Sequence record: MK327931.1
Reading direction: 5' to 3' (one strand)
Source: Escherichia phage vB_EcoM_G17
Length of the DNA: 64,000 nucleotides
Shown: positions 8,260 to 59,099 of the stretch, one piece after another
Position numbering within the stretch: position 1 is the first letter of the stretch
How the letters are laid out: each line of letters opens with the position of its first letter
Position numbers and translations under genes: made by a program
Notes under the pieces: model-generated
What the model was told of the DNA's origin: nothing
The model's database searches: none
Seen by the model: only the letters and a program-made list of their open reading frames with translations

Positions 8260-8589
8260 TTATTCCTCATCATCCACTAAAACAAGATAATCCAAACTTA
8301 ACTCGGTATCTATGTAACAATCACAATTCAAGTACTCAATTTCAGCACCTATAGTTCTCCCATTCTTAAATATCTCAATGATTTTCATTCTAGTATTGGG
8401 ATTAATGTGTTCAATGTCGTATTCGTATTCAGGGTCAATATACTCACTTGTCATACGTTTGATGTATTGTTCCGAATATCGTACAGTTTTACCTATAAGA
8501 TCATTACTCAACGTCTGATAAAAATCATCTTGAATTTTGAATAATGACCTATAAAAAATATTATGTTGAATTAGTGGTTTCATTGACAT
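8260..8589 (-). CDS. small hypothetical protein (KYxGKxV-like family)
   Basis: 109 aa; 'NDLIGKTVRY'. Confidence 0.45.
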   Translation of the reverse strand: MSMKPLIQHNIFYRSLFKIQDDFYQTLSNDLIGKTVRYSEQYIKRMTSEYIDPEYEYDIEHINPNTRMKIIEIFKNGRTIGAEIEYLNCDCYIDTELSLDYLVLVDDEE

Positions 8590-9230
8590 TAATCACAACT
8601 TCCAGACGATGAACTTGAATCAGAACTAGAGCTATCATAGGAACAAGAATCAGAGGAAGAACTGCTGTGACGGCTATAATCACTGTAATCATCATTGTTG
8701 TAGATTGGTGATGTTACGATTGCTGCTGCGGTCGCTGCCGTTGCAATTTGTGCAGTATGGTCATGAACACCTAGTTGTGGTTCATCCTTAGATTTACCTT
8801 TGTTCTTACCTTTAGTGTAACGAGCTTTCTTTGCAGTTTTAGTATTTTTCTGTACTTTAGGAGCTTTTGGTTTCACATCTTCAACGACTGGAACTACATT
8901 CACTACAACTTTAGGATCAGTTTCTTCAAGTGTATTATACACTTTAACTTGCATTTGAACTTCAACTTCTTTAACTTCTTCTTTAACTTCTTCTTTAACT
9001 TCTGGAATAACTGTTTCTGGTGCTGGAGTGATTTTATCAAGTTCTTTAGTAATAAAGAAGCTTGTATTTTTCTCACCTAGCATAACAAGAAGACCAATGG
9101 CAATCACTGGACTTAGTACTGTACCAAGTACTACATAACCTAGAACACTTCGGTTATAGTTATATGCAAGCATACCAGAAATAATAATACCGATTACATA
9201 TGCACTGCTAAGAATAATTGGGGTTAACAT
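8589..9230 (-). CDS. membrane-anchored protein with EVKEEVK repeats and Ser/Asp-rich tail
   Basis: 213 aa; N-terminal TM segments, 'EVKEEVKEEVKEVE', basic patch, C-terminus 'SSSSSDSCSYDSSSSDSSSSSGSCD'. Confidence 0.55.
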   Translation of the reverse strand: MLTPIILSSAYVIGIIISGMLAYNYNRSVLGYVVLGTVLSPVIAIGLLVMLGEKNTSFFITKELDKITPAPETVIPEVKEEVKEEVKEVEVQMQVKVYNTLEETDPKVVVNVVPVVEDVKPKAPKVQKNTKTAKKARYTKGKNKGKSKDEPQLGVHDHTAQIATAATAAAIVTSPIYNNDDYSDYSRHSSSSSDSCSYDSSSSDSSSSSGSCD

Positions 9231-9534
9231 ATTCTACTCCTTTGTATATAAATTTACTAACTTCTTCGATGTATAAAGACAACCCTGAACGTTCATTTAG
9301 AACTAACCAAGCACCAAAACCACATCGAATCTCGGATATATGAAACTCTTCTACACTATAAATTGAATACGCGTTAAATGGACATATTTCATCAGATATA
9401 CTTACCACATAGTTATTATTAATTGAATCTAACACCTGGGTATTGTATAAATTATTAGTACTGAAAATCTGCATTAACGAGCTAGAAAGCATCTCGGTTG
9501 TCTTTTCTAATATTGTTAAAAACGAACCATTCAC
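9208..9534 (-). CDS. hypothetical protein (108 aa)
   Basis: Minus-strand ORF. Confidence 0.4.
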   Translation of the reverse strand: MNGSFLTILEKTTEMLSSSLMQIFSTNNLYNTQVLDSINNNYVVSISDEICPFNAYSIYSVEEFHISEIRCGFGAWLVLNERSGLSLYIEEVSKFIYKGVEYVNPNYS

Positions 9535-9591
9535 TTCAACTTCTCCCTATTGGTGATGTAATCAAATTATATCACCGAATTCTGATACGTC

Positions 9592-9897
9592 TCATGATAT
9601 TCGCATTTCATCTATATATAATGAACATGATTCAGAATTATCGTCTAAACTTAAACCTAAATCGACCATCAAACCGCAATGCGTTCCCCAGAATTTCTTT
9701 ATGTATAGTTTTTTGCTATTATTACCTAAATCATAAACATATTCATTTTTAAATATACTTTTTAATTCTTCACATATACATTTTATTATCTTCATTACTT
9801 GATTATGATATTCGTATGGTATTCCATCAAGTTCGTTAATTATTAATGCAAAACCATCATCATAGTACTTAAGTTTATTGAATGTTTGTATATCCAT
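9592..9897 (-). CDS. hypothetical protein (101 aa)
   Basis: Minus-strand ORF. Confidence 0.45.
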   Translation of the reverse strand: MDIQTFNKLKYYDDGFALIINELDGIPYEYHNQVMKIIKCICEELKSIFKNEYVYDLGNNSKKLYIKKFWGTHCGLMVDLGLSLDDNSESCSLYIDEMRIS

Positions 9898-10194
9898 TTA
9901 ATATATAATCTCACTAGCTTCTATTGTGTAGACACCATCATCAGTCATTAATCTAACTGCAACTTTAATATTATTAGACATTCGTGTAACTATCAATCCA
10001 ATAATTACACCATTCTTTAAAGTACCGTTATGGTATCTTACTTGTACTTTAGTTTTGTTATCAATTAGGTATCTTCGAATTTGATGAATTTCAGTTCTAA
10101 ACAGTTCTAAATAAACTTCACTATATTCCTTATCTGAACCGTCTGAACACCAGTACAATAAATTTACTTGTTCAAATAATTTTTTTATATTCAT
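9898..10194 (-). CDS. small hypothetical protein (98 aa)
   Basis: Minus-strand ORF abutting its neighbour. Confidence 0.45.
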   Translation of the reverse strand: MNIKKLFEQVNLLYWCSDGSDKEYSEVYLELFRTEIHQIRRYLIDNKTKVQVRYHNGTLKNGVIIGLIVTRMSNNIKVAVRLMTDDGVYTIEASEIIY

Positions 10195-10550
10195 AAAAAT
10201 CTCACAGATTTAATATTACTGGTTACATGATTTACCCAAGTGTTATCGAACTTGTAAACAATTGTATTAAGTGATTTATGAAAATTAACCTCGCACACTA
10301 ATGCCTTGGAACCATTGATTGTACAGACCGTGGATGGTAAGTTGTTTGCTAATATCTCTTTTTCATCTAAACATAGTGAACTAATACAATCATAATAGAG
10401 AGGTTCAAGAACTTTTTCAGTACTGAGAAATTCAAAAGAAAGATCATCTATTAGTTTTATGTAATCGAATAAATTATGATAATATTCATTCATTGCAGAT
10501 CCTTTTAAATTTAGCATTATTAGAATATGTATATGAATGACCGAAATCAT
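10191..10550 (-). CDS. hypothetical protein (119 aa)
   Basis: Minus-strand ORF; 4-nt overlap downstream. Confidence 0.4.
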   Translation of the reverse strand: MISVIHIHILIMLNLKGSAMNEYYHNLFDYIKLIDDLSFEFLSTEKVLEPLYYDCISSLCLDEKEILANNLPSTVCTINGSKALVCEVNFHKSLNTIVYKFDNTWVNHVTSNIKSVRFL

Positions 10551-16230: not shown

Positions 16231-16274
16231 CTTTGTACCTGCGAAAAAAGACCAGCAAACGCTGGCCTAAGAAT

Positions 16275-16556
16275 TTAAATTATTTCATAAAGACAATATA
16301 CACCATCAACGCCAGCATCAGGAAAATCAACATAGAAATTCACACTAACAGTGTCGTAATCTATATCAGTGATTCGTCCGGTTTTACCTACACTTTTTAC
16401 AAATATATCAGACCCAAGATACACAAACTCGAACTCGTCAGCATACTCTTTTATGATATCTGCGAACCTACAACCACACCTAGGTTCTGTGTTAATAATT
16501 TCAAGATATAATGTAATATATTGTTCGTATGTCCATGTGTGTAGATAAAAATCCAT
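16275..16556 (-). CDS. hypothetical protein (93 aa)
   Basis: Minus-strand ORF. Confidence 0.45.
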   Translation of the reverse strand: MDFYLHTWTYEQYITLYLEIINTEPRCGCRFADIIKEYADEFEFVYLGSDIFVKSVGKTGRITDIDYDTVSVNFYVDFPDAGVDGVYCLYEII

Positions 16557-16566: not shown

Positions 16567-17304
16567 TTAGAAATATATCATACCCATCAATTCAGAATCG
16601 GCGGGGCGAGTATAACCTTGCTTCTTAACTTTAAAATAGAATGATTCATGCTCTTCTAAATTATAACGTTTTTTCAAGCAACGAGTGTATGTCTGACAAT
16701 TTGGGTGAACCCATTCATAAATGTGAATGCCATTTTCGTCATAACCATTTATACTACAACGATTTCCTTCATGCTTCATGAAGTTTTTACTTTTTTCAGT
16801 AAATTCTTTCACTGTAGTTGTATATGGGGATTTGTATTCAAAAGGAACTTCAGTCATACGAAAATAATAGTATTCTTCGTCTTCATCATATCCCAAGAGC
16901 ACTGTGTTAGTTTCACGTACATTGTAATGATTCTTACTTTTTAATTCATTTTCGTATATATCTTTCAGTACTTCTGCAAAAACTTCCTCGCTTGATGCAT
17001 TAGGATTAGATACACCTGATACTCGGCGTTCAATAATAAAATCAGTGAATTTACGGTCTTCGGCAATATCTTCGTTCATATAAAGACTAACAAACTTATC
17101 CTTATATGTCTTTACACTATATTGCTTACTTTGCACTTCACTATAAACATCTGCTAACATATTCTCCTGACCACACTGCACACCACTTACAGAATAAGCA
17201 CATGCATGTTCAGCCATTACTGATGTTAACATTTGGAAATTTGCCATGTTTAATTCATTCGCCATCTCTGTAGCGAAACGGATACGGTCAAGCATTTCAC
17301 ACAC
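16567..17304 (-). CDS. hypothetical protein (245 aa)
   Basis: Minus-strand ORF; no motif recognised. Confidence 0.5.
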   Translation of the reverse strand: MCEMLDRIRFATEMANELNMANFQMLTSVMAEHACAYSVSGVQCGQENMLADVYSEVQSKQYSVKTYKDKFVSLYMNEDIAEDRKFTDFIIERRVSGVSNPNASSEEVFAEVLKDIYENELKSKNHYNVRETNTVLLGYDEDEEYYYFRMTEVPFEYKSPYTTTVKEFTEKSKNFMKHEGNRCSINGYDENGIHIYEWVHPNCQTYTRCLKKRYNLEEHESFYFKVKKQGYTRPADSELMGMIYF

Positions 17305-17353
17305 TCCTTGTGTTAATTATTGTTCCTTACCCATTATTATATCATGAATTAAA

Positions 17354-17650
17354 CTATTGTCCCTGTTTATAGCAATAAAGATTCTCTAATTTAAAATCTA
17401 CTAGATCACATTCAGAACGTACTCGATTCTTGTTCCAGAATAAAATACGAATCCTTTCATAATCACGATAAACACTAATAATGCTTCTGTGCTTGGATTT
17501 GTAGTAATCCTGTACTATCCCCAGATACACAGTCCTCAATAAAGACTTAGTTGGATAGGGCATATTCTGTGCTGACGTGATATCGTAAATCATCTTCATT
17601 GTTTCAGCAACAAGTACTTCATTTGTTCTCATTGTAATCCTTACATACAC
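17354..17650 (-). CDS. hypothetical protein
   Basis: Minus-strand ORF; true start may be the internal 'MRTNEV' Met at 17632. Confidence 0.4.
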   Translation of the reverse strand: MYVRITMRTNEVLVAETMKMIYDITSAQNMPYPTKSLLRTVYLGIVQDYYKSKHRSIISVYRDYERIRILFWNKNRVRSECDLVDFKLENLYCYKQGQ

Positions 17651-17795
17651 TATGTAAAGTAAATCCTAATCCAACACCGACAAATGGAAATAGTAAATTG
17701 ATATACCAAGTATTAATTGATGAAAGTAAACAAATCCCACATACTGTCAGTACTGCCAATGAAAAAAGACTCCAGATAAAAAATACTGCTCTCAT
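17619..17795 (-). CDS. small membrane protein (58 aa), below the 60-aa track cutoff
   Basis: My translation: 'MRAVFFIWSLFSLAVLTVCGICLLSSINTWYINLLFPFVGVGLGFTLHSVCKDYNENK'; two hydrophobic helices; ATGA overlap with upstream gene stop. Confidence 0.35.
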   Translation of the reverse strand: MRAVFFIWSLFSLAVLTVCGICLLSSINTWYINLLFPFVGVGLGFTLHSVCKDYNENK

Positions 17796-18082
17796 AAAAA
17801 TGTTACCTCATCAAATGAAAAGTTTAAGTACGTTGTTGAATCTTGGTCTAAAGTATGAATAGTAATATGACCATTGAAATAAAAAGAAACATCAACTATT
17901 TGAAGTTTTGGGTATTTTCTAGTACTGAAATACCTTCCTACTACTAAGTCAGAAAACATATTTCTGTATTCTTGTGTTACGTTTTTGTATAGGTTATGTA
18001 GAGCACTTTCTTGTGAATCGAAAGTAATGGAATAATCTTTCACCAATATAGCATATGTTTTCTGCATTAAAATGATATTCAT
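17792..18082 (-). CDS. small protein, IQFTYK-type family
   Basis: 96 aa; N-terminus 'MQKTYAILVKDY'. Confidence 0.45.
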   Translation of the reverse strand: MNIILMQKTYAILVKDYSITFDSQESALHNLYKNVTQEYRNMFSDLVVGRYFSTRKYPKLQIVDVSFYFNGHITIHTLDQDSTTYLNFSFDEVTFL

Positions 18083-18342
18083 AAATCTCCTAATATCTCA
18101 AAAATTATTGATATTGGGTATACTGGGTTATCAGATGAAGTAACACATACTATTAGTACGTTTTTTCCAGGTGCTACATCCTTTACCGTGAAATTAATAT
18201 TATTAAGAATCAGTGATTTACCAATATAATGCTCTTTCAATAATTCAACAAAATAATCCAGTACTGGATTATCTGCACTATATGATAACTCAGTACTTGA
18301 TATCATTTTATATGTATGAACTATTAGTTCAGCTTTAGTCAT
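18079..18342 (-). CDS. small hypothetical protein (KYxGKxV-like family)
   Basis: Track ORF runs to 18465; likely start is internal Met 'MTKAEL' at 18342, avoiding overlap with the zinc-ribbon gene. 'EHYIGKSLIL'. Confidence 0.4.
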   Translation of the reverse strand: MTKAELIVHTYKMISSTELSYSADNPVLDYFVELLKEHYIGKSLILNNINFTVKDVAPGKNVLIVCVTSSDNPVYPISIIFEILGDL

Positions 18343-18535
18343 GAACACGCTCACAATTAAGGCAATAAATGCACTCAATGTCAGGTCGCCATGATTTATC
18401 AAAATCTTTGTGTTGTTCTTCGGTGTATTCCGCATCATCATTAATAGGGAAGAAATCACCAGCACCAGTCGCCCAGTCTGAATCTAAACGGAAACGAGCT
18501 AATTGAGTACTGTTACAATATGGACATTTATTCAA
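18335..18535 (-). CDS. small zinc-ribbon protein
   Basis: 66 aa; 'CPYCNS ... CIYCLNC' (CxxC x2). Confidence 0.5.
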   Translation of the reverse strand: MNKCPYCNSTQLARFRLDSDWATGAGDFFPINDDAEYTEEQHKDFDKSWRPDIECIYCLNCERVHD

Positions 18536-18812
18536 AATTTATTCCTTCTAACTGATATACGTTTAATGAAAATGACCCACTATTATTATCGCATCTGAAA
18601 CACAGTGTTAAAGAACCATTAAAACTAACTACATCCGTACAGATACATTTTTCACCATTGGATATGATAGATTTTCCTATATATAAATCTCTTACTATAG
18701 TACGGTAATGTTGCCATAAAAAATAATACACACTTTCATAGTACTCATCTTTTACATATGATAAGTATAAGAATTTATAAAATACTTGTATTTCCTTTAA
18801 GTTGTTTTTCAT
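18528..18812 (-). CDS. small protein, IQFTYK-type family
   Basis: 94 aa; 'KEIQVFYKFLYLSY'. Confidence 0.5.
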   Translation of the reverse strand: MKNNLKEIQVFYKFLYLSYVKDEYYESVYYFLWQHYRTIVRDLYIGKSIISNGEKCICTDVVSFNGSLTLCFRCDNNSGSFSLNVYQLEGINFE

Positions 18813-19086
18813 TCTTCAATTCCAGTAAATTTACACCAATCCAATCAACATCACTATCAGTACTTAATTCCAATCGTAGCTTACCGCTATGACTAACAAT
18901 ATCGCGGAATTTGTATATTTTATTATCACGAACTATACACAAATCATGGTAATATTCATGTAATTCATCCAAAAACTTTATCCATACCGAACGATAGATT
19001 TCACTGTAGAGATATTCTCCAGCATCAACCGTAGCGTATTGGATATACAAAAATTTGTATGTGAATTGTATATCATTTAATAACAT
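18775..19086 (-). CDS. small protein, IQFTYK-type family
   Basis: 103 aa; 'LNDIQFTYKFLYIQY'. Confidence 0.5.
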   Translation of the reverse strand: MLLNDIQFTYKFLYIQYATVDAGEYLYSEIYRSVWIKFLDELHEYYHDLCIVRDNKIYKFRDIVSHSGKLRLELSTDSDVDWIGVNLLELKNEKQLKGNTSIL

Positions 19087-19096
19087 ATGTAACCTC

Positions 19097-19408
19097 TTAT
19101 AAATTCACCAACTTCACAACTTTAATCTCGATAAATCCCCTATCGGTTATTTCCTGAAATTGAACATGGATTATACCATTATATGATTGCACACCATAGA
19201 AATCGAATTTATCATTTCCATCGATAAAAGTACTGTAATTCTTTTTTATATATTCACCTACTGAATCTAAGTACTCAATATATAAATCAATAAATGGTTG
19301 TTCTTTGGATCGGTTATGTGAACCTATGTTGTTACTAACAAGGTATACATCATACAAATCATATAGGATCTTATAAGTGAATTGTATATCATTTAAATTT
19401 AATCCCAA
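19097..19408 (-). CDS. small protein, IQFTYK-type family
   Basis: 103 aa; 'LNDIQFTYKILYDLY'. Confidence 0.5.
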   Translation of the reverse strand: MGLNLNDIQFTYKILYDLYDVYLVSNNIGSHNRSKEQPFIDLYIEYLDSVGEYIKKNYSTFIDGNDKFDFYGVQSYNGIIHVQFQEITDRGFIEIKVVKLVNL

Positions 19409-19665
19409 GGGAATATCTCCAACGGAATACTGGTAAATCCAAAATCAGTGTAGTACTGAACCTCAACTTTACCATCACGTCTAATGATTATATCAGAAAA
19501 TTCTGCATGGTCATCACCAATAATAACAGTACTGAATTTTTTTTTAATCTTACCACGAATCGTATGAATCATTTCAGTGCATGTGTCTTCTAGACTAGGG
19601 CTATCATTGTCGTGTGCTAAATCTCGAATAATCTTGTATGTTAGTAGGAAATCTTTATAATTCAT
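19399..19665 (-). CDS. small protein, IQFTYK-type family
   Basis: 88 aa; 'KDFLLTYKIIRDL'. Confidence 0.5.
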   Translation of the reverse strand: MNYKDFLLTYKIIRDLAHDNDSPSLEDTCTEMIHTIRGKIKKKFSTVIIGDDHAEFSDIIIRRDGKVEVQYYTDFGFTSIPLEIFPWD

Positions 19666-19937
19666 ATGTCCACCAAATCTATACTATATCTTTCATTAGT
19701 ATTACTATCTATAAATGATAGTACTAATTTACCACCAAAACTATTAACTTGTTCTATCTTCTGTTTTTTACCACGAATGATTATCTCACTATTAACAAAA
19801 TATTCACGTATCATTATTAAGTGATTAATCCAGATAGTATGAGTGAATGTGTTTTCTCGTATTGTATTGAGATATCTTCCATTGTGATGTAAATCAAACA
19901 AAACACTGTATGTATATTGTAGAACTTTATAATTCAT
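19662..19937 (-). CDS. small protein, IQFTYK-type family
   Basis: 91 aa; 'KVLQYTYSVLFDL'. Confidence 0.5.
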   Translation of the reverse strand: MNYKVLQYTYSVLFDLHHNGRYLNTIRENTFTHTIWINHLIMIREYFVNSEIIIRGKKQKIEQVNSFGGKLVLSFIDSNTNERYSIDLVDI

Positions 19938-19949
19938 ATATCCCCTTAC

Positions 19950-19978
19950 AAAAATAGCCCGAACTTATGTCGGGCTAT
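19950..19978 (-). terminator. rho-independent terminator
   Basis: Stem AGCCCGA / TCGGGCT (19956-19962 / 19970-19976); T-run follows on minus strand (plus 19950-19955 A-run). Confidence 0.55.
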
Positions 19979-19983
19979 GTACA

Positions 19984-20670
19984 TTATTCATCGTCGTCAT
20001 CGTCATCTAGATCGATATAGATACTATCATCACCATCATCAAAGTACTCCACAATAACTCCTGGAATATTAAGGGCAGTAAACATTGCATCATATTTCTC
20101 ATCAGATGGAATCAAAACAAATTCGTCAATGTTTTGAACTTCTGGCATTTTATCTTCGGGGATACCCATATCAACAAGTGACTGAATAATCTTTTCTTTG
20201 AATTCTAAAAACTTCTCTTCAGATTCAAAATCCATAATAAGCTGTGCAACATATCCTTCATCGTTACCGAATGAAATTGACATTTGTGCATCAGTACCGA
20301 CATAGCACCAAACACGTTTACCTGTGTGCTGCTCAATAAAGTTTTGAATCTGTAACACAATGTCATGGCGAGAACTGTTAGCAATGTTGTTAAGATTTTC
20401 TACACCAGCATTAATTCCAGTACTGTCATTTGTTTCTTCAAATTCACCATAATCACCCAATACATACTGTACACCTTCATGATGTAATGCATATGCATAG
20501 TCAAGGTCAGCGAGTGAATCGCACTTTCCACGGATCGGACGTAGGGAAAGACCTAAGCGAAGATAACGGAAGTATGTATTAGTATTTGTATTTGTCAACG
20601 TAATGCTCCTTAACAATATAAAAGTAGTTGCTGTTATTGTCAAAAAAGATAACCATCCCTTTATAGACAT
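19984..20670 (-). CDS. hypothetical acidic protein
   Basis: ORF with poly-Asp/Glu C-terminus 'DLDDDDDDE'; start uncertain (overlaps upstream ORF, no early Met after the first). Confidence 0.45.
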   Translation of the reverse strand: MSIKGWLSFLTITATTFILLRSITLTNTNTNTYFRYLRLGLSLRPIRGKCDSLADLDYAYALHHEGVQYVLGDYGEFEETNDSTGINAGVENLNNIANSSRHDIVLQIQNFIEQHTGKRVWCYVGTDAQMSISFGNDEGYVAQLIMDFESEEKFLEFKEKIIQSLVDMGIPEDKMPEVQNIDEFVLIPSDEKYDAMFTALNIPGVIVEYFDDGDDSIYIDLDDDDDDE

Positions 20671-20878
20671 TTACACCAATTTTGATTTCACATATGTTAT
20701 TTGATTTACTCGCTTCAGTCAATAACATTTTGTGCTCTTTACTGAAAGTGTGGAACAGTGGTTTGACATGCCACATTTCGATACCATCCAGTACTGAAAA
20801 TTTTTCACTAAATTTAATCATTGATTCTTGTAAAAAATATCCTGTAAGATTTATTTCATCACACATGCAAGTTTCCAA
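20579..20878 (-). CDS. hypothetical protein (99 aa)
   Basis: Minus-strand ORF. Confidence 0.4.
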   Translation of the reverse strand: METCMCDEINLTGYFLQESMIKFSEKFSVLDGIEMWHVKPLFHTFSKEHKMLLTEASKSNNICEIKIGVNVYKGMVIFFDNNSNYFYIVKEHYVDKYKY

Positions 20879-21152
20879 GAAAATTAATCACATCTGCATG
20901 TGATAATGTATCATTACCTTCTAGTACATTAATGATAAACGGCACTTGACGATATAGTTCAGCCAGGAATTGTACCTCATCAGATGTGTAAGAATATCCC
21001 ATAGGAACAACCTGTGCAGTCCAGTTTCCTAGAGTTTTGTTAGCAATAATTGCAACTACAGTATTACCTTTGTATTCAACATGGATGGAACGAAATCCTG
21101 ATTGCTCATTTTGATCCCAAAGTACTGGATTGGTTTTGAACAGTACTGACAT
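20859..21152 (-). CDS. hypothetical protein (97 aa)
   Basis: Minus-strand ORF directly downstream of the NMNAT-like gene. Confidence 0.45.
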   Translation of the reverse strand: MSVLFKTNPVLWDQNEQSGFRSIHVEYKGNTVVAIIANKTLGNWTAQVVPMGYSYTSDEVQFLAELYRQVPFIINVLEGNDTLSHADVINFLGNLHV

Positions 21153-40409: not shown

Positions 40410-40960
40410 AATAGTTCCTTATACATATGATGTACTTTACAAATCTCATTATAGTATTTCATATCAATGTCATTTGTATTAAAAACGGAAACAGACAATA
40501 CTGCTAACTTATCAATTAAGTAATTATTATCGGCGTACTGTTTTAACTTATTGAACATATAGATGCATTTTATACTTAATTCATCATGCAACACACTGTT
40601 CTGAAAAATATTCTCTTCAGTATTAGGAGATAAGTAATCTTCAATTATATACGATAAACTACTATCGCAATCTTTATAGATTGAAATTGATGGATGTAAT
40701 GTGTCATACATTACACTAAACAGATCACCGTCATATGTGGATATTAAACTATTATTGGAAACAGTAGGATGATAATATTTCAGTACTGAAAACTTTGAAC
40801 AATCAGTGCAGTAAAAATGATCCATCCCTCGACGACTTTCGTATGAGAATAGTTTACTTGTATATTCAATCCCTTTGGTGCGACGGATTGTTTCATGCAT
40901 TTCTGCACATTGCATTAAAATTACCATACGTTCAAACGCAAGATCTAAATCATCGTACAT
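40400..40960 (-). CDS. FQxS-family paralogue
   Basis: 186 aa; 'EENIFQNSVLH'. Confidence 0.55.
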   Translation of the reverse strand: MYDDLDLAFERMVILMQCAEMHETIRRTKGIEYTSKLFSYESRRGMDHFYCTDCSKFSVLKYYHPTVSNNSLISTYDGDLFSVMYDTLHPSISIYKDCDSSLSYIIEDYLSPNTEENIFQNSVLHDELSIKCIYMFNKLKQYADNNYLIDKLAVLSVSVFNTNDIDMKYYNEICKVHHMYKELLCQ

Positions 40961-41141
40961 AACGGATATCCTTCTTCAACGAATTAATATATTCCAAAAT
41001 AACTTGTTCCTGATATTGGGTTCCCAAGTACATCAGTACTTTCAACTCTTTGAATTCAGTACTATATGAGTCTGTTTGCATCATTCTAGTAGAATATATA
41101 TTGAATAGTTTAGCAATATCATCTTGGTCTATTATTTTCAT
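40950..41141 (-). CDS. LGTNYQE-family small protein (copy embedded in the FQxS array)
   Basis: 63 aa; 'MYLGTQYQEQ'. Confidence 0.5.
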   Translation of the reverse strand: MKIIDQDDIAKLFNIYSTRMMQTDSYSTEFKELKVLMYLGTQYQEQVILEYINSLKKDIRYVR

Positions 41142-41337
41142 TAACCCTCTTCTGTATTAGTTCCTGTAAGTGCTGAATATAACCCTTCATTGCAACATCC
41201 TGTTTGTTAGAGCCAACGAAGAACAAGAGCTTAAAGTCATGGTAATCCATTTTTGGTTTAGTAGTGAACCATATGTCCCACACTGCACTCACAGTTCTCA
41301 TGTATTCAATTCGATTAAATGTTTTTGAATACTTCAT
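41119..41337 (-). CDS. LGTNYQE-family small protein (divergent, embedded copy)
   Basis: 72 aa; 'FFVGSNKQDV'. Confidence 0.45.
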   Translation of the reverse strand: MKYSKTFNRIEYMRTVSAVWDIWFTTKPKMDYHDFKLLFFVGSNKQDVAMKGYIQHLQELIQKRVNENNRPR

Positions 41338-53582: not shown

Positions 53583-53975
53583 CTAATCTTTCCATTTAAT
53601 AGGATACTCCTTTCCTTGTACTATATATGACAAAATCCATCCGTAATGAATAGGATGATTTTTGTCTGAATCAGGAATAAAATATAAAGCTGTACTTGGA
53701 TTATGACTGAATAAATCTTTATTGTCAAATGTAAAATGTGATAATATAATTTTCCTTGCACTTGGACGAATAACATTCTTAACACTGAACTCTGAACCTT
53801 TGTATTTCTCCGATAATTCAAATAATGCATCTGTAATTAAATCACTGATCTCTTGGATTACAAAATTCTGATAAAATGCATTAATCTCTTTTAACTCTGT
53901 ATACAATTCACTTCTGGTATTCAAAAGAAATATTACTTTTTTAAGATCCTGAACTATTTCTGGATTCATATTCAT
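53583..53975 (-). CDS. hypothetical protein (130 aa)
   Basis: Minus-strand ORF. Confidence 0.45.
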   Translation of the reverse strand: MNMNPEIVQDLKKVIFLLNTRSELYTELKEINAFYQNFVIQEISDLITDALFELSEKYKGSEFSVKNVIRPSARKIILSHFTFDNKDLFSHNPSTALYFIPDSDKNHPIHYGWILSYIVQGKEYPIKWKD

Positions 53976-54207
53976 TTATCTCATTCTGTAACTTAAGCAT
54001 CAAAATTTGCATATTAATTTTTTGTAAAAGGTGCTTGATAAATTTCTGTGCCATTTCTTCTTGTTCTTTTGTACCAAGATAAAATAACAGATTAAATTCT
54101 GATAATCGCAAAGAAAAATCTTCATCACCACCCTTTAAACAAAAATCCCTGTACTTTGTAGCGTACAAATATTGGTTTACCTTTTTATAATACCCTGTGT
54201 TTTGCAT
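53941..54207 (-). CDS. LGTNYQE-family small protein
   Basis: 88 aa; 'FYLGTKEQEE'. Confidence 0.5.
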   Translation of the reverse strand: MQNTGYYKKVNQYLYATKYRDFCLKGGDEDFSLRLSEFNLLFYLGTKEQEEMAQKFIKHLLQKINMQILMLKLQNEINEYESRNSSGS

Positions 54208-54395
54208 ACTATCTCCGTTCGCAACGAATTTATATAATAATGAACAAATTGTTCTTGTGAACGTGTTCCAAGAAAAATAAACATATCAAACTCTGTTGTT
54301 TTTAAATTCAATGCATCTTTTGTAAAATTCCTGTTGAATTCCCTGTACTTTTGGGTCTTCCATTCTTGATTAATTGTCTTGTATATCGATTTCAA
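54177..54395 (-). CDS. LGTNYQE-family small protein
   Basis: 72 aa; 'IFLGTRSQEQ'. Confidence 0.5.
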   Translation of the reverse strand: MKSIYKTINQEWKTQKYREFNRNFTKDALNLKTTEFDMFIFLGTRSQEQFVHYYINSLRTEIVCKTQGIIKR

Positions 54396-55396: not shown

Positions 55397-55706
55397 TAGG
55401 CTCCTGTTTAGATTCTTTCATTAGTACTATCATCTTATGTACTAATGGCATAGGGAACTCTAAATCCCATACTAATGATTCCTGGAAGTATTCCTCTGGT
55501 GATAAAGTACTTAAATCTTTAATATCAACGTGCTTGTATATTTTATTTTCGTAATTAACAAATGATATATATAAATCACTAACATAAGAATCATAGGTAA
55601 TTGTGAATGGCTTACCCTTGTAATCCATTACATCTCTACATAGACTACTTTTGATATATGTATGTTCAAATGATTTATATACCTTGAGTTGTATATTAGT
55701 TTTCAT
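55362..55706 (-). CDS. FQxS-family paralogue
   Basis: 114 aa; 'LSPEEYFQESLVWD'. Confidence 0.55.
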   Translation of the reverse strand: MKTNIQLKVYKSFEHTYIKSSLCRDVMDYKGKPFTITYDSYVSDLYISFVNYENKIYKHVDIKDLSTLSPEEYFQESLVWDLEFPMPLVHKMIVLMKESKQEPNGDYEEHIVEY

Positions 55707-55971
55707 ATTTCTCTTTATTAGCTTGTTTGGTTTTATAGTGAATTAAATCTATTAATGTAATCAAGTACAACGTCAAATAGTACTCTTGTTGATCTGTACC
55801 TAATGATACAAAGAACTTGTGCTCATAGATTAAAACCTGTTTCTCTTCAAATGGACATTTAATCCTCTGTATAGGCTTAAGTAAATGATAGTACTTATTA
55901 AATCTATGATACATTTCTAGTTCTGTCAGTACTTTCATATTAAACACATACTCCATTAGCTGTAGCATCAC
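55696..55971 (-). CDS. LGTNYQE-family small protein
   Basis: 91 aa; 'FVSLGTDQQEY'. Confidence 0.5.
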   Translation of the reverse strand: MMLQLMEYVFNMKVLTELEMYHRFNKYYHLLKPIQRIKCPFEEKQVLIYEHKFFVSLGTDQQEYYLTLYLITLIDLIHYKTKQANKEKYEN

Positions 55972-56161
55972 GTAAAGCTGTCAAATACTTCTGTACGGCT
56001 TGCTCTTGCTTATTTGTACCTAAAAGTATATACATCCATAATTCACTGTAATGTACATCTTGTGTATAAGGGTCATTGTAACTTTTTGATAATATAGCAT
56101 CAAATTCAGATGCATGAACCCTTGTGAACTTAAGAATATCTTGTTGTGTTATGATTCTCAT
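55940..56161 (-). CDS. LGTNYQE-family small protein
   Basis: 73 aa; 'ILLGTNKQEQ'. Confidence 0.55.
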   Translation of the reverse strand: MRIITQQDILKFTRVHASEFDAILSKSYNDPYTQDVHYSELWMYILLGTNKQEQAVQKYLTALRDATANGVCV

Positions 56162-56373
56162 ATCTTTTCCTGTACAATCTGTATAAGAATACCTATGTGT
56201 GAATTAACAGTTCTCTCTTGATGCTGTGTTCCTAAGAGTGTCAGTACTATCATATCTGAACGCAAAAGATTTTTTTCAAGTTCACTTATATCAGTTCTTG
56301 AATCAAGTGCCATATATTTGTGATTATTCTTCCTGAATAGTGCCAAGTACTCTTGGTTTGATATTATCTTCAT
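56158..56373 (-). CDS. LGTNYQE-family small protein
   Basis: 71 aa; 'TLLGTQHQER'. Confidence 0.55.
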   Translation of the reverse strand: MKIISNQEYLALFRKNNHKYMALDSRTDISELEKNLLRSDMIVLTLLGTQHQERTVNSHIGILIQIVQEKI

Positions 56374-56585
56374 AGTTTACTTTTAATTTCCATTAAAAGT
56401 GCTCTAATATGCTCATTGACAAATCGCTCTTGGGAATCTGTGTCTAGGGTGAGAAGCATTCTTAAATCGGAACCTCTGATGGTATATTCTAAATCATTCT
56501 TTGATTCTCGCATAAGTTTCTGAAAGGATGAGAAGTGTAATCCCATGAGTTCAATGTATTCTGCTGTTCCTAGTGGTTTTGGCAT
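56370..56585 (-). CDS. LGTNYQE-family small protein
   Basis: 71 aa; 'LTLDTDSQER'. Confidence 0.5.
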   Translation of the reverse strand: MPKPLGTAEYIELMGLHFSSFQKLMRESKNDLEYTIRGSDLRMLLTLDTDSQERFVNEHIRALLMEIKSKL

Positions 56586-56803
56586 TTTAGTTCAATAGCT
56601 CGTTTAAGTGTATTAATATAATCTTTAATGTCGTGTTCTTGATAGTTCGTTCCAAGGGTAGCTAGAACATAGACTTCATTTCTCTTAATAATTTTATCCA
56701 TATCTGGTATATCTGATGTGTTAATGACGAAGAGCTTCAAAAACAGTCCATTTATGATTGTTAGGTATTCTACATCGGTAATGATTTTCATTTGCATTTG
56801 CAT
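56570..56803 (-). CDS. LGTNYQE-family small protein
   Basis: 77 aa; 'ATLGTNYQEH'. Confidence 0.55.
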   Translation of the reverse strand: MQMQMKIITDVEYLTIINGLFLKLFVINTSDIPDMDKIIKRNEVYVLATLGTNYQEHDIKDYINTLKRAIELKCQNH

Positions 56804-57009
56804 TTTCTCAGTACTGATTCTTTAAGTTCATTGATGTAGCACTCTACATATTCTTCTTGTAGGTTTGTTCCGATATGTAACAGTACTCTTAAATCTGCTC
56901 TCAGTACTTCTTTGTCATCTTCATCTATATCAGACAGTGTTATGTTTAAGAATTTACTTGAACTCTCTATAAGTAATATTACTGAATCACCTTTGCTTAA
57001 AATTTTCAT
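56788..57009 (-). CDS. LGTNYQE-family small protein
   Basis: 73 aa; 'LHIGTNLQEE'. Confidence 0.55.
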   Translation of the reverse strand: MKILSKGDSVILLIESSSKFLNITLSDIDEDDKEVLRADLRVLLHIGTNLQEEYVECYINELKESVLRKCKCK

Positions 57010-57217
57010 AATCTCTTTTTGCTTTCCTCGCCAAAAGGTACATATACGATTCTTCGTATTGTGCTTGGTAGTTTGTGTTTAAGAGTCGAAACAACTTCTG
57101 TTCTGCTAGAACTAGTTGCTTATCTTCATAACAACGGTAGCGTATCAACTTTTTGTATTCGATGTTGATTACATCCATTACTATAAGCCCATGTTCATCA
57201 TCTGTCAAGTGTTTCAT
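56987..57217 (-). CDS. LGTNYQE-family small protein
   Basis: 76 aa; 'RLLNTNYQAQ'. Confidence 0.5.
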   Translation of the reverse strand: MKHLTDDEHGLIVMDVINIEYKKLIRYRCYEDKQLVLAEQKLFRLLNTNYQAQYEESYMYLLARKAKRDYENFKQR

Positions 57218-57456
57218 GCATTTTTTCTTTTTCTTATATGTTTAGTTAAAAGGTATATTAGTTTTCTGATGTATTCTTCTTGATAGTTTGTTCCTAAGAG
57301 TGCAAGAAGTTTTGCTTCAACTAAAGCTAGTTGTCGTTCTTCGAATGTGTGTTCCAGTATGTACTTGGGGTTTGATTTTTTAGCGTAAGCACTATTAGTC
57401 TTCATTACAATCTTATGATATTCATTAGCTGTTAGGATTTTTAAATACTTGATCAT
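57214..57456 (-). CDS. LGTNYQE-family small protein
   Basis: 80 aa; 'ALLGTNYQEE'. Confidence 0.55.
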   Translation of the reverse strand: MIKYLKILTANEYHKIVMKTNSAYAKKSNPKYILEHTFEERQLALVEAKLLALLGTNYQEEYIRKLIYLLTKHIRKRKNA

Positions 57457-57676
57457 GTATCTTTTCCTTTATAGAGAATTTAAGATATCGAAGCATACTT
57501 TCAATGTAATACTCTTGTCTGTCAGTGCCAAGAAAGTACATGAGTTGAATGTATAAAACTTCTGCACTCCTTTCCGCTGGAGACTTGTTTGTGTCGTTTG
57601 GAAGTTGATTTGTATGTTTTCTTGATTTAATTAGTCGTTCTTTTAACTCATCGTCTGTTAAGTATTTCATTTTCAT
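57425..57676 (-). CDS. LGTNYQE-family small protein
   Basis: 83 aa; 'PAERSAEVLYIQLMYFLGTDRQEYY'. Confidence 0.55.
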   Translation of the reverse strand: MKMKYLTDDELKERLIKSRKHTNQLPNDTNKSPAERSAEVLYIQLMYFLGTDRQEYYIESMLRYLKFSIKEKIHDQVFKNPNS

Positions 57677-57902
57677 TTACTTTTTCCTTAATAGTGATTT
57701 TAAGATATCTAATCATACGTGCAACATATTCCTCTTGTCTATCAGTTCCCAGAAGATATGGTAGTGATTGGAATAATACTTCTGCACTCCTTTCTGCTGG
57801 GGTTTGGTTTAGGTCAATTGGACGTTTATTGGTATATCTCTTGGCACGAACTAATCTCTCGACGTATTCATTATAGGTTAAGTATATCATTTCATTTTGC
57901 AT
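57648..57902 (-). CDS. LGTNYQE-family small protein
   Basis: 84 aa; 'PAERSAEVLFQSLPYLLGTDRQEEY' (close to the preceding copy). Confidence 0.55.
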   Translation of the reverse strand: MQNEMIYLTYNEYVERLVRAKRYTNKRPIDLNQTPAERSAEVLFQSLPYLLGTDRQEEYVARMIRYLKITIKEKVNENEILNRR

Positions 57903-58122
57903 TTACTTTTTCCTTAATACTCATTATAAGATGTTCAATCATATTTTGAACCATAAATTCTTGTTTATCAGTTCCAAGAACGTATGGTAGCTTCTGAAAC
58001 AATACATTTGCAGATACTTCAGATATTGATTGATTTGGAACGAACTTAAGAGTAATGTTTTTGGTTTTTAACATCTTCTCTTGAAATTCTTCATTCGTTA
58101 AGTATATCATTTCATTTTGCAT
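57892..58122 (-). CDS. LGTNYQE-family small protein
   Basis: 76 aa; 'YVLGTDKQEF'. Confidence 0.55.
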   Translation of the reverse strand: MQNEMIYLTNEEFQEKMLKTKNITLKFVPNQSISEVSANVLFQKLPYVLGTDKQEFMVQNMIEHLIMSIKEKVNAK

Positions 58123-58338
58123 TTACATTCTCTCATATATATTTTGGGTTAAAAGGTCAATCCAGATTTCCACATATCGTTGTTGGTGTTGCGTCCCTAA
58201 CAGTACACCCAACTTAGCTTCACACTCTAATAACAATCTGGTTTTGTATGGTAGACTTTGGAATCCTATAGTAGCATCTAATTTGGTAATTGCATAGTTG
58301 ATTCGGATGAATCTTTCTTGCAATGTGATGTTGTTCAT
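58123..58338 (-). CDS. LGTNYQE-family small protein
   Basis: 71 aa; 'VLLGTQHQQR'. Confidence 0.55.
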   Translation of the reverse strand: MNNITLQERFIRINYAITKLDATIGFQSLPYKTRLLLECEAKLGVLLGTQHQQRYVEIWIDLLTQNIYERM

Positions 58339-58625: not shown

Positions 58626-58627
58626 TA

Positions 58628-58894: not shown

Positions 58895-59099
58895 TACTAT
58901 TCATGAGTTCTATAAGATAGTTTTCTACCTTACCTTCCTGATAGTTAGTCCCTAGGAAGTTGCACAACACGGCTTCTATGATTTTGATTTTCCTGATATC
59001 AGGCTTCAATCTTTTGTTATTGAATATTTGAATCCTTATATCTCTGGATGCATTTAAACGTTTTTGATATTCATGGTAAGTTAAATGAATCATTTTCAT
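58869..59099 (-). CDS. LGTNYQE-family small protein
   Basis: 76 aa; 'NFLGTNYQEG'. Confidence 0.55.
   Translation of the reverse strand: MKMIHLTYHEYQKRLNASRDIRIQIFNNKRLKPDIRKIKIIEAVLCNFLGTNYQEGKVENYLIELMNSIENKCKGN

What the first reader, a model, noticed from the sequence alone, without database searches (positions are those of the whole stretch)
17792..19937. Third small tandem family with a conserved N-terminal 'IQFTYK(F/I)LY' helix
Six consecutive 88-103 aa genes begin with closely related N-termini (MLLNDIQFTYKFLYIQY, MGLNLNDIQFTYKILYDLY, MNYKDFLLTYKIIRDL, MNYKVLQYTYSVLFDL, KEIQVFYKFLYLSY, MQKTYAILVKDY) and then diverge. A terminator follows the last copy. This is another locally amplified, diversifying family.
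Basis: seen in the sequence. Interest (0 to 1): 0.45.

Follow-up and report, generated by a model that had tools for sequence, protein, structure and literature searches.

The report
Fast-evolving small-protein family, jumbo phage
A giant E. coli phage carries a row of at least seven, probably eight or nine, small related genes for a roughly 90-residue protein of unknown function; the family is real and changes much faster than its neighbours, but such gene arrays are ordinary in large phages.

Summary
The window matches Escherichia phage Sharanji (Asteriusvirus, 121Q/PBECO4 group) at 100% identity over 17000-21000. All genes here are on the minus strand. The six quoted N-termini exist. Five of the genes (g1-g5, 18528-19937) are consecutive and form a solid family: leave-one-out HMM E = 2e-10 to 2.5e-14, with g2 at 1.5e-3.

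The similarity is full-length, not only N-terminal. AlphaFold gives two helices followed by a four-stranded sheet, with no full-fold match among solved structures.

The sixth gene (g7) is separated from g5 by a conserved 66-aa zinc-ribbon gene and by an overlooked member, g6. A further gene, g9 (16275-16556), is a probable member, and g8 is a possible one.

The "terminator after the last copy" in fact lies upstream of the first copy. A second conserved terminator follows g9.

The family is confined to the same syntenic locus in Asteriusvirus and RaK2-like phages. Copy number differs between lineages but is fixed within the 121Q group.

Members evolve faster than their neighbours: 32-76% against 86-99% protein identity, and dN/dS 0.2-0.6 against 0.02-0.14. 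No gene-wide positive selection was seen. They are absent from the phAPEC6 virion proteome.

The most likely role is as non-structural accessory proteins that bind host or phage targets. That role is inferred, not shown.

The parts
19954..19978 (-). Terminator-like hairpin with a T-run, between the upstream acidic 204-aa gene and g1. It marks the upstream boundary of the unit.
   Evidence: 9-bp stem with 5 GC pairs, then TTTTTG; conserved with stem and loop variants in L002-L004, L014, L012 and L017; absent in the L008/L011 lineage and in RaK2.
19662..19937 (-). g1, core family member (91 aa; Sharanji gp537; phrog_32291)
   Evidence: Leave-one-out E = 2e-10.
19399..19665 (-). g2, core family member (88 aa; gp536; phrog_35943). 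It is the most divergent of the five.
   Evidence: Leave-one-out E = 1.5e-3. hhalign of the g2 ortholog group against a core profile that already contains g2 sequences gives P = 1.9e-31, so this figure is not an independent test.
19097..19408 (-). g3, core family member (103 aa, TTG start; gp535; phrog_21004)
   Evidence: Leave-one-out E = 8.4e-9.
18775..19086 (-). g4, core family member (103 aa; gp534; phrog_21004). Its last ~12 residues are encoded by DNA that overlaps the start of g5 in another frame.
   Evidence: AlphaFold pLDDT 85, pTM 0.73, order helix-helix-strand-strand-strand-strand, with the tail 99-103 below pLDDT 50. Leave-one-out E = 2.5e-14.
18528..18812 (-). g5, core family member (94 aa; gp533)
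   Evidence: Leave-one-out E = 2.2e-10.
18335..18535 (-). 66-aa Cys4 zinc-ribbon gene embedded in the array (gp532; phrog_22354). It is NOT a family member and is highly conserved.
   Evidence: hhalign against the core P = 0.39-0.98. 97-100% identical within Asteriusvirus with dN/dS 0.02-0.05. 71% identical in RaK2.
   Evidence: HMM E = 6e-3. hhalign P = 1.6e-3, with 0 of 120 shuffles reaching it. An AlphaFold model built only from its own orthologues (pLDDT 72) has the same helix-helix-four-strand order. Four of its five best BFVD matches appear to be g1, g5, g4 orthologues (only g5 identity checked).
17792..18082 (-). g7, family member (96 aa; gp530; phrog_28826)
   Evidence: Core+orthologue HMM E = 7.7e-5, the best non-core ORF of 308. 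hhalign P = 1.7e-4 over 75 columns, with 0 of 120 shuffles reaching it, z = 7.1.
17619..17795 (-). 58-aa membrane protein gene (gp529), not a family member
   Evidence: Hydrophobic sequence, GRAVY +0.98. hhalign P = 0.22-0.8.
17354..17632 (-). g8, a possible family member (92 aa; gp528; phrog_32563)
   Evidence: HMM E = 0.03-0.4. hhalign P = 7.9e-3 local and 2.7e-3 global. 2 of 120 shuffles reach it.
16567..17295 (-). Conserved 242-aa gene of unknown function inside the unit (gp527; phrog_16105), not a member
   Evidence: 92% identity and dN/dS 0.07 between clades.
16275..16556 (-). g9, a probable distant family member (93 aa; gp526; phrog_32812). Motif ..LHTWTYEQYITLY..
   Evidence: hhalign against the core P = 5.3e-4 local (85 columns) and 2.6e-4 global (91 columns). 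0 of 120 shuffles reach it, z = 5.1.
16249..16268 (-). Intrinsic-terminator-like hairpin with a T-run directly after g9. It marks the downstream boundary of the unit.
   Evidence: Conserved with loop and stem variants in L002, L003, L014, L012 and L011.

Best explanation
Shown:
- The region holds one tightly packed, co-oriented gene unit at 19978-16249 on the minus strand, bracketed by two conserved terminator-like hairpins. It belongs to an Asteriusvirus jumbo phage.
- The unit carries a paralogous family of small soluble proteins of about 90 residues. Five are core members (g1-g5), g6 and g7 are diverged members, g9 is probable and g8 is possible.
- The members are interleaved with three unrelated conserved genes: a zinc ribbon, a small membrane protein and a 242-aa protein.
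- All members tested share one predicted fold, an N-terminal helical hairpin packed on a four-stranded antiparallel sheet.
- The conserved sequence landmarks are the helix-1 motif (D/E)(I/L)QFTYKxLY, an aromatic-rich second helix, and an S(Y/F)xG turn with an invariant Gly.
- The family grew by tandem duplication at this one locus. It evolves by birth and death of copies and by exchange of alleles between related phages.
- Its members change several-fold faster than their neighbours but remain under purifying selection.
- They are not virion components.

Inferred (about 0.3 on its own):
- The proteins are early or middle non-structural accessory factors that act by binding other proteins.
- The constrained helix 1 and hydrophobic core would supply a common scaffold, or a common docking or oligomerisation surface.
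- The fast-changing helix 2 and sheet surfaces would give each paralogue a different host or defence-system target.
- On this reading the array works like the host-takeover and anti-defence gene clusters of other large phages.
For: Family and extent:
- Pairwise blastp, leave-one-out HMMs and the core+orthologue HMM. In that HMM search the three best non-core ORFs of 308 are exactly the next three genes of similar size, g7, g6 and g8.
- hhalign with shuffle controls.

Fold:
- g4 model pLDDT 85, pTM 0.73.
- An independent g6 model has the same order of elements and finds presumed g1, g5, g4 orthologues among its five best BFVD hits.
- A RaK2 89-aa protein, H6X4R2, matches the g4 model at TM 0.59-0.66.

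Restricted distribution and synteny:
- HMMER against 1.84 billion proteins gave 19 hits, of which 18 are genuine. All five that were looked up lie in the same locus, Dam - cytidylyltransferase - ... - array - 242-aa gene - RNA ligase.
- RaK2 has HMM-positive copies on both sides of the zinc-ribbon gene.

Copy-number differences and lineage-specific duplicates.

Rates:
- Family members are 32-76% identical between clades with dN/dS 0.2-0.6. Neighbours are 86-99% identical with dN/dS 0.02-0.14.
- Helix 1 has dN/dS 0.12-0.19, the rest 0.29-0.39.

Allele exchange:
- g4 and g5 of Ecwhy_1 differ from the window by dS 0.04-0.08, while the flanks differ by dS 0.8-1.5.
- Two g4 alleles are distributed independently of the genome backbone.

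Genes are real:
- Intact orthologues exist in 35 phage records.
- Shine-Dalgarno-like sequences and overlapping stop/start codons are visible in the sequence.

Non-structural: phAPEC6 gp383c-gp389c are absent from the 62-protein virion proteome (Table 1 of PMC7247149).

Unit boundaries.
Against: - There is no functional evidence of any kind. Pfam, NCBIfam and PDB sequence searches are empty, and every PHROG involved is 'unknown function'.
- Gene-wide dN/dS is below 1 everywhere, so relaxed constraint explains the rates as well as an arms race does.
- g9 evolves slowly between the two main clades (91% identity, dN/dS 0.08).
- Expression timing is unknown. The promoter scan is uninformative: 36 sites found against 36.7 expected.
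- The upstream hairpin leaves only 17 nt before the g1 start codon, so the array must be read through it or from further upstream.
- The g6 model has only moderate confidence, and g8 is borderline.
Confidence: 0.55

Rival explanations
1. The paralogues are interchangeable subunits or adaptors of a phage-encoded complex built around the conserved genes of the same unit (the zinc-ribbon protein, the 242-aa protein, the small membrane protein). The conserved helix 1 would be the docking element. Their role would then be phage-internal, for example regulation of transcription or nucleic-acid transactions, rather than host-directed.
For: - The zinc-ribbon gene lies inside the array in every Asteriusvirus and RaK2-type locus examined, and is far more conserved than the family: 97-100% within the genus and 71% in RaK2.
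- The unit is bracketed by conserved terminators, which suggests co-expression.
- Helix 1 is the most constrained segment.
Against: - A more distant zinc-ribbon homologue (41% identity, L021) has no family member within 5 kb.
- The number of paralogues varies from about 4 to about 9 between lineages, which is unusual for stoichiometric partners.
- No interaction was tested.
Confidence: 0.2
2. The copies are functionally redundant or decaying duplicates drifting under relaxed selection. The fast divergence would reflect weak constraint, not diversification of function.
For: - dN/dS is raised (0.2-0.6) but always below 1.
- g6 alleles are only 32% identical between clades.
- Copies are gained and lost between lineages.
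Against: - Every copy is an intact ORF of unchanged length in more than 30 genomes.
- dN/dS stays clearly below 1.
- The helix-1 motif and the S-x-x-G turn are kept across paralogues and across genera.
- AlphaFold folds g4 confidently.
- Translational coupling (overlapping stop/start codons) is preserved.
Confidence: 0.15
3. The N-terminal resemblance is a nucleotide-level effect rather than protein-level conservation. It could come from gene conversion between neighbouring 5' ends, or from a shared regulatory or translation-initiation element.
For: Direct DNA repeats join the 5' ends of neighbouring genes: g3/g4 share 26 nt at 92%, and g1/g2 share 54 nt at 70% including the ribosome-binding region.
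Against: - The motif is kept with synonymous differences. The T-Y-K codons are ACA TAC AAG, ACT TAT AAG and ACA TAC AAA in g2, g3 and g4.
- The motif recurs in distant lineages and in RaK2-type members.
- Similarity extends over the whole protein.
- Helix 1 has the lowest dN/dS while its dS is not lowered.
Confidence: 0.05
4. Chance similarity of AT-rich small ORFs, with no real family.
For: The N-terminal motif alone is only marginal for g1, g2 and g5, and fails for g7.
Against: - Full-length leave-one-out E-values of 2e-10 to 2.5e-14.
- Shuffle controls.
- Independent structure predictions with the same topology.
- PHROG cross-hits.
Confidence: 0.01

Closest known systems
PHROG families phrog_21004 (g3, g4), phrog_32291 (g1), phrog_35943 (g2), phrog_33961 (g6), phrog_28826 (g7), phrog_32563 (g8) and phrog_32812 (g9); all 'unknown function'
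   Same: The window proteins match these profiles end to end at E = 1e-44 to 1e-63. They are the same proteins, already deposited as 'hypothetical protein' in 121Q, PBECO4, Sharanji and others.
   Different: PHROGs splits them into at least seven unrelated-looking families, and g5 has no family of its own. Here they are joined into one family by profile, shuffle-control and fold evidence. Cross-hits such as g1 to phrog_21004 (3.5e-5) and g5 to phrog_21004 (1.6e-4) already hinted at this.
Hyperplastic (plastic) regions of T4-superfamily and other large phages: runs of small, co-oriented, poorly conserved early genes (own knowledge: Comeau et al. 2007, Virology, 'Modular architecture of the T4 phage superfamily')
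   Same: - Small tightly packed ORFs on one strand.
- Content that varies between relatives.
- Fast evolution and no virion association.
- Location among nucleotide and nucleic-acid metabolism genes (Dam, cytidylyltransferase-like, RNA ligase).
   Different: Here most ORFs of the block are paralogues of one fold, not unrelated ORFans. The block is delimited by two conserved terminators and contains three strongly conserved non-family genes.
Multigene families and 'gene accordions' of large DNA viruses (own knowledge: ASFV MGF families; poxvirus K3L amplification, Elde et al. 2012, Cell)
   Same: Tandem paralogues at one locus, lineage-specific gain and loss, and the presumption of host-interaction roles.
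   Different: There is no recent amplification. The paralogues are 15-30% identical, and copy number is fixed across more than 30 close genomes.
Phage anti-defence gene clusters, such as anti-CRISPR loci with a conserved marker gene (own knowledge)
   Same: A cluster of small, fast-evolving proteins of unknown fold around a conserved small gene (here the zinc ribbon), with mosaic exchange between related phages.
   Different: - No homology or fold match to any solved anti-defence protein.
- The conserved gene is a zinc ribbon, not a helix-turn-helix Aca-type regulator.
- No functional test exists. The resemblance is in organisation only.

Membership tests
One paralogous family comprising g1-g5 | Each member is recovered by a profile built without it, above all unrelated ORFs of the window | tested here: met
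   rank 1 with E = 2e-10 to 2.5e-14 for g1, g3, g4 and g5; g2 at rank 2 with E = 1.5e-3. The best unrelated ORF has E >= 0.004.
Extended family (g6, g7, g9, g8) | Profile-profile score against the core above a column-shuffle null and above neighbouring small genes | tested here: met
   0 of 120 shuffles reach g7, g6 or g9 (z = 7.1, 5.5, 5.1). g8 is reached by 2 of 120 and is inconclusive on its own. Ten other small neighbours have P > 0.06.
Extended family (g6) | Same predicted fold from an alignment that contains no core member | tested here: met
   H3-15, H26-39, E43-46, E49-59, E62-69, E76-82. for g4: H3-19, H25-45, E50-53, E56-66, E69-75, E82-86. Four of the five best BFVD hits of the g6 model are taken to be g1, g5, g4 orthologues; only the g5 entry was checked. 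Confidence is moderate (pLDDT 72).
phrog_21004 | Full-length match to the PHROG profile | tested here: met
   g3 at 2.4e-50 and g4 at 5.3e-44, both full length. g1 3.5e-5, g5 1.6e-4 and g2 0.011 are cross-hits. g6 and g7 give no hit.
Any Pfam, NCBIfam or PDB-sequence family | Match at or above the curated threshold | tested here: not met
   Nothing above threshold; the best PDB sequence E-value is 0.21.
Recent tandem amplification ('gene accordion') | Near-identical copies, with copy number polymorphic among close isolates | tested here: not met
   The paralogues are 15-39% identical by segment. The longest DNA repeat is 54 nt at 70%. The same gene order is found in all records at >= 80% nucleotide identity.
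Birth-and-death multigene family at a fixed locus | Different copy numbers and lineage-specific duplicates at the syntenic locus in diverged relatives | tested here: met
   Before the zinc-ribbon gene there are 5, 5, 3, 1 and 2 copies in Sharanji, L014, Turkey5, L009 and RaK2. L014 p1-p3 are all g1-like, and L009 q90 and q96 are mutual near-neighbours.
Positively selected (arms-race) genes | dN/dS above 1 gene-wide or at specific sites | tested here: inconclusive
   Gene-wide Nei-Gojobori dN/dS is 0.15-0.66, raised relative to neighbours (0.02-0.14) but below 1. Site models were not run.
Diversity-generating retroelement target | Template and variable repeat pair plus a reverse transcriptase | tested here: not met
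   No long near-identical repeat in 17300-20000. A reverse transcriptase was not searched for window-wide.
Virion or structural protein | Detection in purified particles | tested here: not met
   phAPEC6 gp383c-gp389c are absent from the 62 virion proteins in Table 1 of PMC7247149.

The most novel reading that the evidence does not exclude
The array is an arsenal of a previously unrecognised two-helix, four-strand fold. Each paralogue would neutralise a different host defence or host-takeover target. The near-invariant helix-1 motif (Q7, T-Y-K) would be a shared docking or oligomerisation element. Birth-and-death of copies, hyperdivergent alleles (g6: 32% identity between clades with flanks at 55-98%) and allele swapping (g4 and g5) would be the footprint of an arms race in RaK2-like jumbo phages.
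Probability: 0.2. Interest if true: 0.55.

Novelty: new member of a known kind. Interest (0 to 1): 0.3.

Why it matters
About 83% of the roughly 550-590 genes of these jumbo coliphages have no known function (PMC7247149). This work collapses at least seven 'unrelated' hypothetical-protein families into one fold family with a defined locus, defined boundaries and a measured evolutionary behaviour. That gives a compact target of seven to nine genes in 3.7 kb for deletion and host-range experiments. It also flags the constrained helix-1 motif and the variable surfaces as the places to mutate. If the proteins do counter host defences, the locus would be relevant to the therapeutic use of Asteriusvirus phages. 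If they do not, it remains an ordinary example of a plastic accessory region.

Tried and rejected
- Pfam, NCBIfam and PDB-sequence profile searches gave nothing.
- Foldseek against AFDB50 was not available.
- The sigma-70 promoter scan gave no more sites than shuffled sequence.
- The iterated HMM did not recruit g6, g8 or g9 at E < 1e-3. hhalign with shuffle controls was needed.
- The weak cluster of HMM hits at 8260-10550 (E = 0.004-0.45) was not pursued and is not claimed.
- The deletions in Salmonella phages SD-1, SD-2, SD-6 and SD-15 were considered as evidence that the genes are dispensable. This was rejected, because the same records also have small deletions in conserved neighbours such as Dam and the cytidylyltransferase-like gene. 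They look like assembly artefacts.
- P0044 (589 aa, Cys-rich repeats) from the large HMMER search is a false positive.
- The zinc-ribbon gene was used as an anchor in IMG/VR. It added only one new locus (L021), which has no family members.
- The literature search found no description of this family.
- The neighbour-joining tree failed to root. Nearest-neighbour identities were used instead.
- The identity of BFVD entry A0A1C3S6P8 (slurp01, 96 aa, TM 0.70-0.74 to g4) as the g7 orthologue could not be verified and is not used as evidence.
Full report
**Where the window comes from.** Positions 17000-21000 are 100% identical to Escherichia phage Sharanji (OR545507.1, 320630-324630). They are 97-99.7% identical to 121Q, PBECO4, phAPEC6, SP27 and other Asteriusvirus jumbo phages. 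A second clade (Ecwhy_1, ph0011, WPEC5, CMSTMSU and others) is about 83% identical. G+C is 30-35%, and all genes in this part are on the minus strand.

**What is in the sequence.** In order of transcription, from high to low coordinates, the genes are:

| Gene | Coordinates | Size | Note |
|---|---|---|---|
| g1 | 19662-19937 | 91 aa | core member |
| g2 | 19399-19665 | 88 aa | core member |
| g3 | 19097-19408 | 103 aa | core member, TTG start |
| g4 | 18775-19086 | 103 aa | core member |
| g5 | 18528-18812 | 94 aa | core member |
| zinc ribbon | 18335-18535 | 66 aa | Cys4, not a member |
| g6 | 18079-18342 | 87 aa | diverged member |
| g7 | 17792-18082 | 96 aa | member |
| membrane protein | 17619-17795 | 58 aa | not a member |
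| g8 | 17354-17632 | 92 aa | possible member |
| 242-aa protein | 16567-17295 | 242 aa | not a member |
| g9 | 16275-16556 | 93 aa | probable member |

- These are Sharanji gp537 to gp526.
- Most adjacent genes overlap by 4-38 nt or are separated by only 10 nt, and they have Shine-Dalgarno-like sequences.

**Statistics for the core.**
- Pairwise blastp links g1-g5, g3-g4, g4-g5 and g2-g3 over 70-98 residues at 24-30% identity. In an all-against-all search of the window they form an isolated component of exactly five.
- Leave-one-out HMMs built from four window paralogues recover the fifth among 308 window ORFs with E = 2e-10 (g1), 8.4e-9 (g3), 2.5e-14 (g4) and 2.2e-10 (g5), and 1.5e-3 for g2.
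- With the N-terminal helix alone the values are only 0.01 (g1), 0.016 (g2) and 0.056 (g5). They are strong only for the g3/g4 pair, and g7 is not detected at all.
The N-terminal motif on its own is marginal, but the family survives formal statistics because the similarity is full-length.
- Helix 1 is indeed the best conserved part: 39% identity among g1-g5, against 15% for the loop plus helix 2 and 21% for the sheet.

**Extension of the family.**
- An HMM of g1-g5 plus diverged orthologues ranks g7 (7.7e-5), g6 (6e-3) and g8 (0.03) as the three best non-core ORFs of 308.
- hhalign of ortholog-group profiles against the core gives the P values below.
- Ten other small genes of the neighbourhood, the zinc ribbon and the membrane protein give P = 0.065-0.66.
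- In the column-shuffle test, two control neighbours are reached by 21 and 22 of 120 shuffles.
- I count g6, g7 and g9 as members and g8 as possible.

| Gene | hhalign P against the core | Column shuffles reaching the observed score |
|---|---|---|
| g7 | 1.7e-4 (75 columns) | 0 of 120 |
| g9 | 5.3e-4 local, 2.6e-4 global (85-91 columns) | 0 of 120 |
| g6 | 1.6e-3 | 0 of 120 |
| g8 | 7.9e-3 local, 2.7e-3 global | 2 of 120 |

**Fold.**
- AlphaFold2 on g4 with a 24-sequence family alignment gives pLDDT 85 and pTM 0.73. It predicts helices 3-19 and 25-45, followed by strands 50-53, 56-66, 69-75 and 82-86.
- g6 was modelled with only its own four orthologues, so independently of the core. It gives pLDDT 72 and the same order of elements.
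- Four of its five best matches in the whole BFVD library are:
  - an 89-aa entry whose accession series and length fit the Ecwhy_1 g1 orthologue;
  - 121Q gp426, which is g5 (identity confirmed);
  - a fragment from phage UB that is 98% identical to g4;
  - one RaK2 protein.
- The g4 model also matches a RaK2 89-aa protein, H6X4R2, at TM 0.59-0.66. By accession order this is ORF455, the first gene after the RaK2 zinc ribbon. That mapping is inferred.
- Profile searches of PDB sequences, Pfam and NCBIfam are empty.

**Distribution.**
- A word-indexed search of 5.8 billion proteins found 33 hits, all orthologues of g1-g5 in Asteriusvirus-like phages.
- An exhaustive HMMER search of 1.84 billion cluster representatives found 19 hits at E <= 1e-3. 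One is a false positive, a Cys-rich repeat protein.
- The five new representatives that I traced all lie in the same syntenic locus: Dam methylase, cytidylyltransferase-like gene, two small genes, an acidic ~200-aa gene, the array, the 242-aa gene and then RNA ligase.
- tblastn of g4 finds 35 phage records, all from Escherichia or Salmonella phages.
- The zinc-ribbon gene is also present at 71% identity in Klebsiella RaK2-like phages. There, HMM-positive copies flank it on both sides: ORF453 at 1.8e-5, ORF456 at 1e-4 to 5e-4, and ORF455 and ORF452 at 1.6e-3 and 7.8e-3 with the iterated profile.
- A more distant zinc-ribbon homologue (41% identity, IMG/VR contig L021) has no family member nearby.

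**Copy number and history.**
- Within Asteriusvirus genomes at 80% nucleotide identity or more, gene order and number are the same.
- Deeper lineages differ:
  - L014 (phage A4 type) has five copies before the zinc-ribbon position.
  - Turkey5/L012 has three.
  - L008/L009/L011 has one before and about six after, one of which scores 7.6e-13.
  - RaK2 has two before and two after.
- Nearest-neighbour identities suggest lineage-specific duplications. All three first copies of L014 are closest to g1, L009 q90 and q96 pair with each other, and Sharanji g2 and g3 are each other's closest paralogues.
- Short DNA repeats still join the 5' ends of g3/g4 (26 nt, 92%) and g1/g2 (54 nt, 70%).
- This is birth-and-death evolution at one locus, not a recent amplification.

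**Rates.** The comparison is between the window and the Ecwhy_1, ph0011 and WPEC5 clade.

| Gene | Protein identity | dN/dS |
|---|---|---|
| Neighbouring genes | 86-99% | 0.02-0.14 |
| Zinc ribbon | 97-98% | 0.02-0.05 |
| g1 | 56-61% | 0.20-0.23 |
| g2 | 76% | 0.19-0.41 |
| g3 | 65-68% | 0.17-0.29 |
| g4 | 60-97% | about 0.5 |
| g5 | 60-100% | 0.6 |
| g6 | 32% | 0.38 |
| g7 | 55-57% | about 0.2 |
| g8 | 71-83% | 0.15-0.27 |
| g9 | 91% | 0.08 |

- g9 is the exception and evolves slowly.
- Pooled over members, helix 1 has dN/dS 0.12-0.19, and helix 2 and the sheet have 0.29-0.39.
- No gene-wide value exceeds 1.
- The locus is mosaic. g4 and g5 of Ecwhy_1 differ from the window by dS 0.04-0.08, while the flanks differ by 0.8-1.5. 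In L014, g5-g7 are 87-96% identical while g1-g4 are 32-43% identical.
- Two g4 alleles, at about 97% and about 60% identity to the window, occur within the same backbone clade.

**Transcription signals.**
It follows the acidic 204-aa gene and ends 17 nt before the g1 start codon, so it precedes the first copy.
- It is conserved with stem and loop variants in most Asteriusvirus-like lineages.
- A second terminator-like hairpin at 16268-16249 directly follows g9 and is likewise conserved.
- The family therefore sits in a unit bracketed by two terminators.
- How the unit is transcribed, by read-through or from an upstream promoter, is not known. The promoter scan is no better than shuffled sequence.

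**What it most likely does.**
- Shown:
  - The proteins are small and soluble, with pI 4.1-9.3 (mostly mildly acidic) and no signal peptide or membrane segment.
  - They are encoded near Dam, a cytidylyltransferase-like gene and RNA ligase.
  - They are absent from the phAPEC6 virion proteome.
- Inferred: a constrained scaffold combined with fast-changing surfaces, gain and loss of copies, and allele exchange is the usual signature of phage accessory proteins that bind host or defence components. I give this mechanism about 0.3.
- The main rival, at about 0.2, is a phage-internal complex with the conserved zinc-ribbon, 242-aa or membrane proteins.
- Drift of redundant copies gets about 0.15.
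- Nucleotide-level explanations and chance are essentially excluded.

**Novelty and verdict.**
- The proteins are already in GenBank and PHROGs as unrelated 'hypothetical' families.
- New here are:
  - their union into one family of seven to nine members;
  - the predicted fold, which has no solved counterpart;
  - the defined unit boundaries;
  - the evolutionary description.
- The phenomenon itself, a plastic array of small fast-evolving paralogues in a large phage, is well known.
- No paper found describes this family.
- Interest is modest, at 0.3.

Noticed in passing
window 55696-62082, 53941-54395, 40950-41337; and 30456-55706: There are two very large paralogue networks elsewhere in the window. 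One is 33 ORFs of ~65-95 aa in an almost unbroken tandem run. The other is 35 ORFs of ~105-205 aa (blastp E < 0.01). Both are separate from the family studied here. Sharanji has a 20.7-kb direct terminal repeat (PMC11895373). If that repeat occupies the end of the record, much of these runs lies in or next to it. This placement is an inference.
   Followed up: no
window 18079-18342 (g6) versus L002 2586-2849, L003 4176-4439: The g6 alleles of the two Asteriusvirus clades have the same length (87 aa) and the same first 8-9 residues (MTKAELIV). They are otherwise only 32% identical, while the adjacent zinc-ribbon gene is 97-98% identical and g7 is 55-57% identical. This is either a hyperdivergent allele or a replacement by a different paralogue.
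   Followed up: partly
window 18528-19086 (g4, g5): g4 and g5 are nearly identical (dS 0.04-0.08) to those of Ecwhy_1-clade phages whose flanks differ by dS 0.5-1.5. ph0011 carries ~60% alleles of both g4 and g5, and WPEC5 carries the ~60% allele of g4 only; its g5 is identical to the window. This points to recent exchange of a two-gene cassette between clades.
   Followed up: partly
window 18775-18812: The last ~12 residues of g4 (NEKQLKGNTSIL, pLDDT < 50) are encoded by a 38-nt overlap with the start of g5 in another frame. The ph0011 orthologue stops earlier, at 96 aa.
   Followed up: no
window 18335-18535: The 66-aa Cys4 zinc-ribbon protein is far more conserved than anything around it: 97-100% in Asteriusvirus, 71% in RaK2 and K64-1 (annotated there as 'transcription factor IIS-like'), and 41% in IMG/VR contig L021. 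It is left unannotated in Ecwhy_1 and WPEC5 although the ORF is present there.
   Followed up: partly
window 19984-20598: The gene just upstream of the array encodes a very acidic 204-aa protein (pI 4.1, net charge about -30) that ends in DLDDDDDDE. It is conserved from Asteriusvirus to RaK2 and has no known function.
   Followed up: no
L005, L006 (Salmonella phages SD-6_S16, SD-1_S14) and H19, H20: These 310-326-kb records show many small deletions across the locus, including in the Dam and cytidylyltransferase-like genes. One is a chimeric g2/g3 ORF (P0025). They look like assembly artefacts rather than natural deletions.
   Followed up: partly
L003 1910-3394 (phage ph0011): A 1485-nt gene (494 aa) is inserted between the 242-aa gene and g8 in ph0011 only.
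   Followed up: no
window 8260-10550: A cluster of adjacent ~100-aa ORFs (8260-8589, 9208-9534, 9592-9897, 9898-10194, 10191-10550) gives weak hits to the iterated family HMM (E = 0.004-0.45). They may be a distant branch of the same fold or just noise.
   Followed up: no
L009 3907-4511, L011 6824-7428: In the L009/L011 metagenomic lineage, further HMM-positive copies (103 aa at E = 7e-5; 98 aa at 7e-3) lie downstream of the 232-aa gene. In that lineage the family spreads beyond the position of g9.
   Followed up: no
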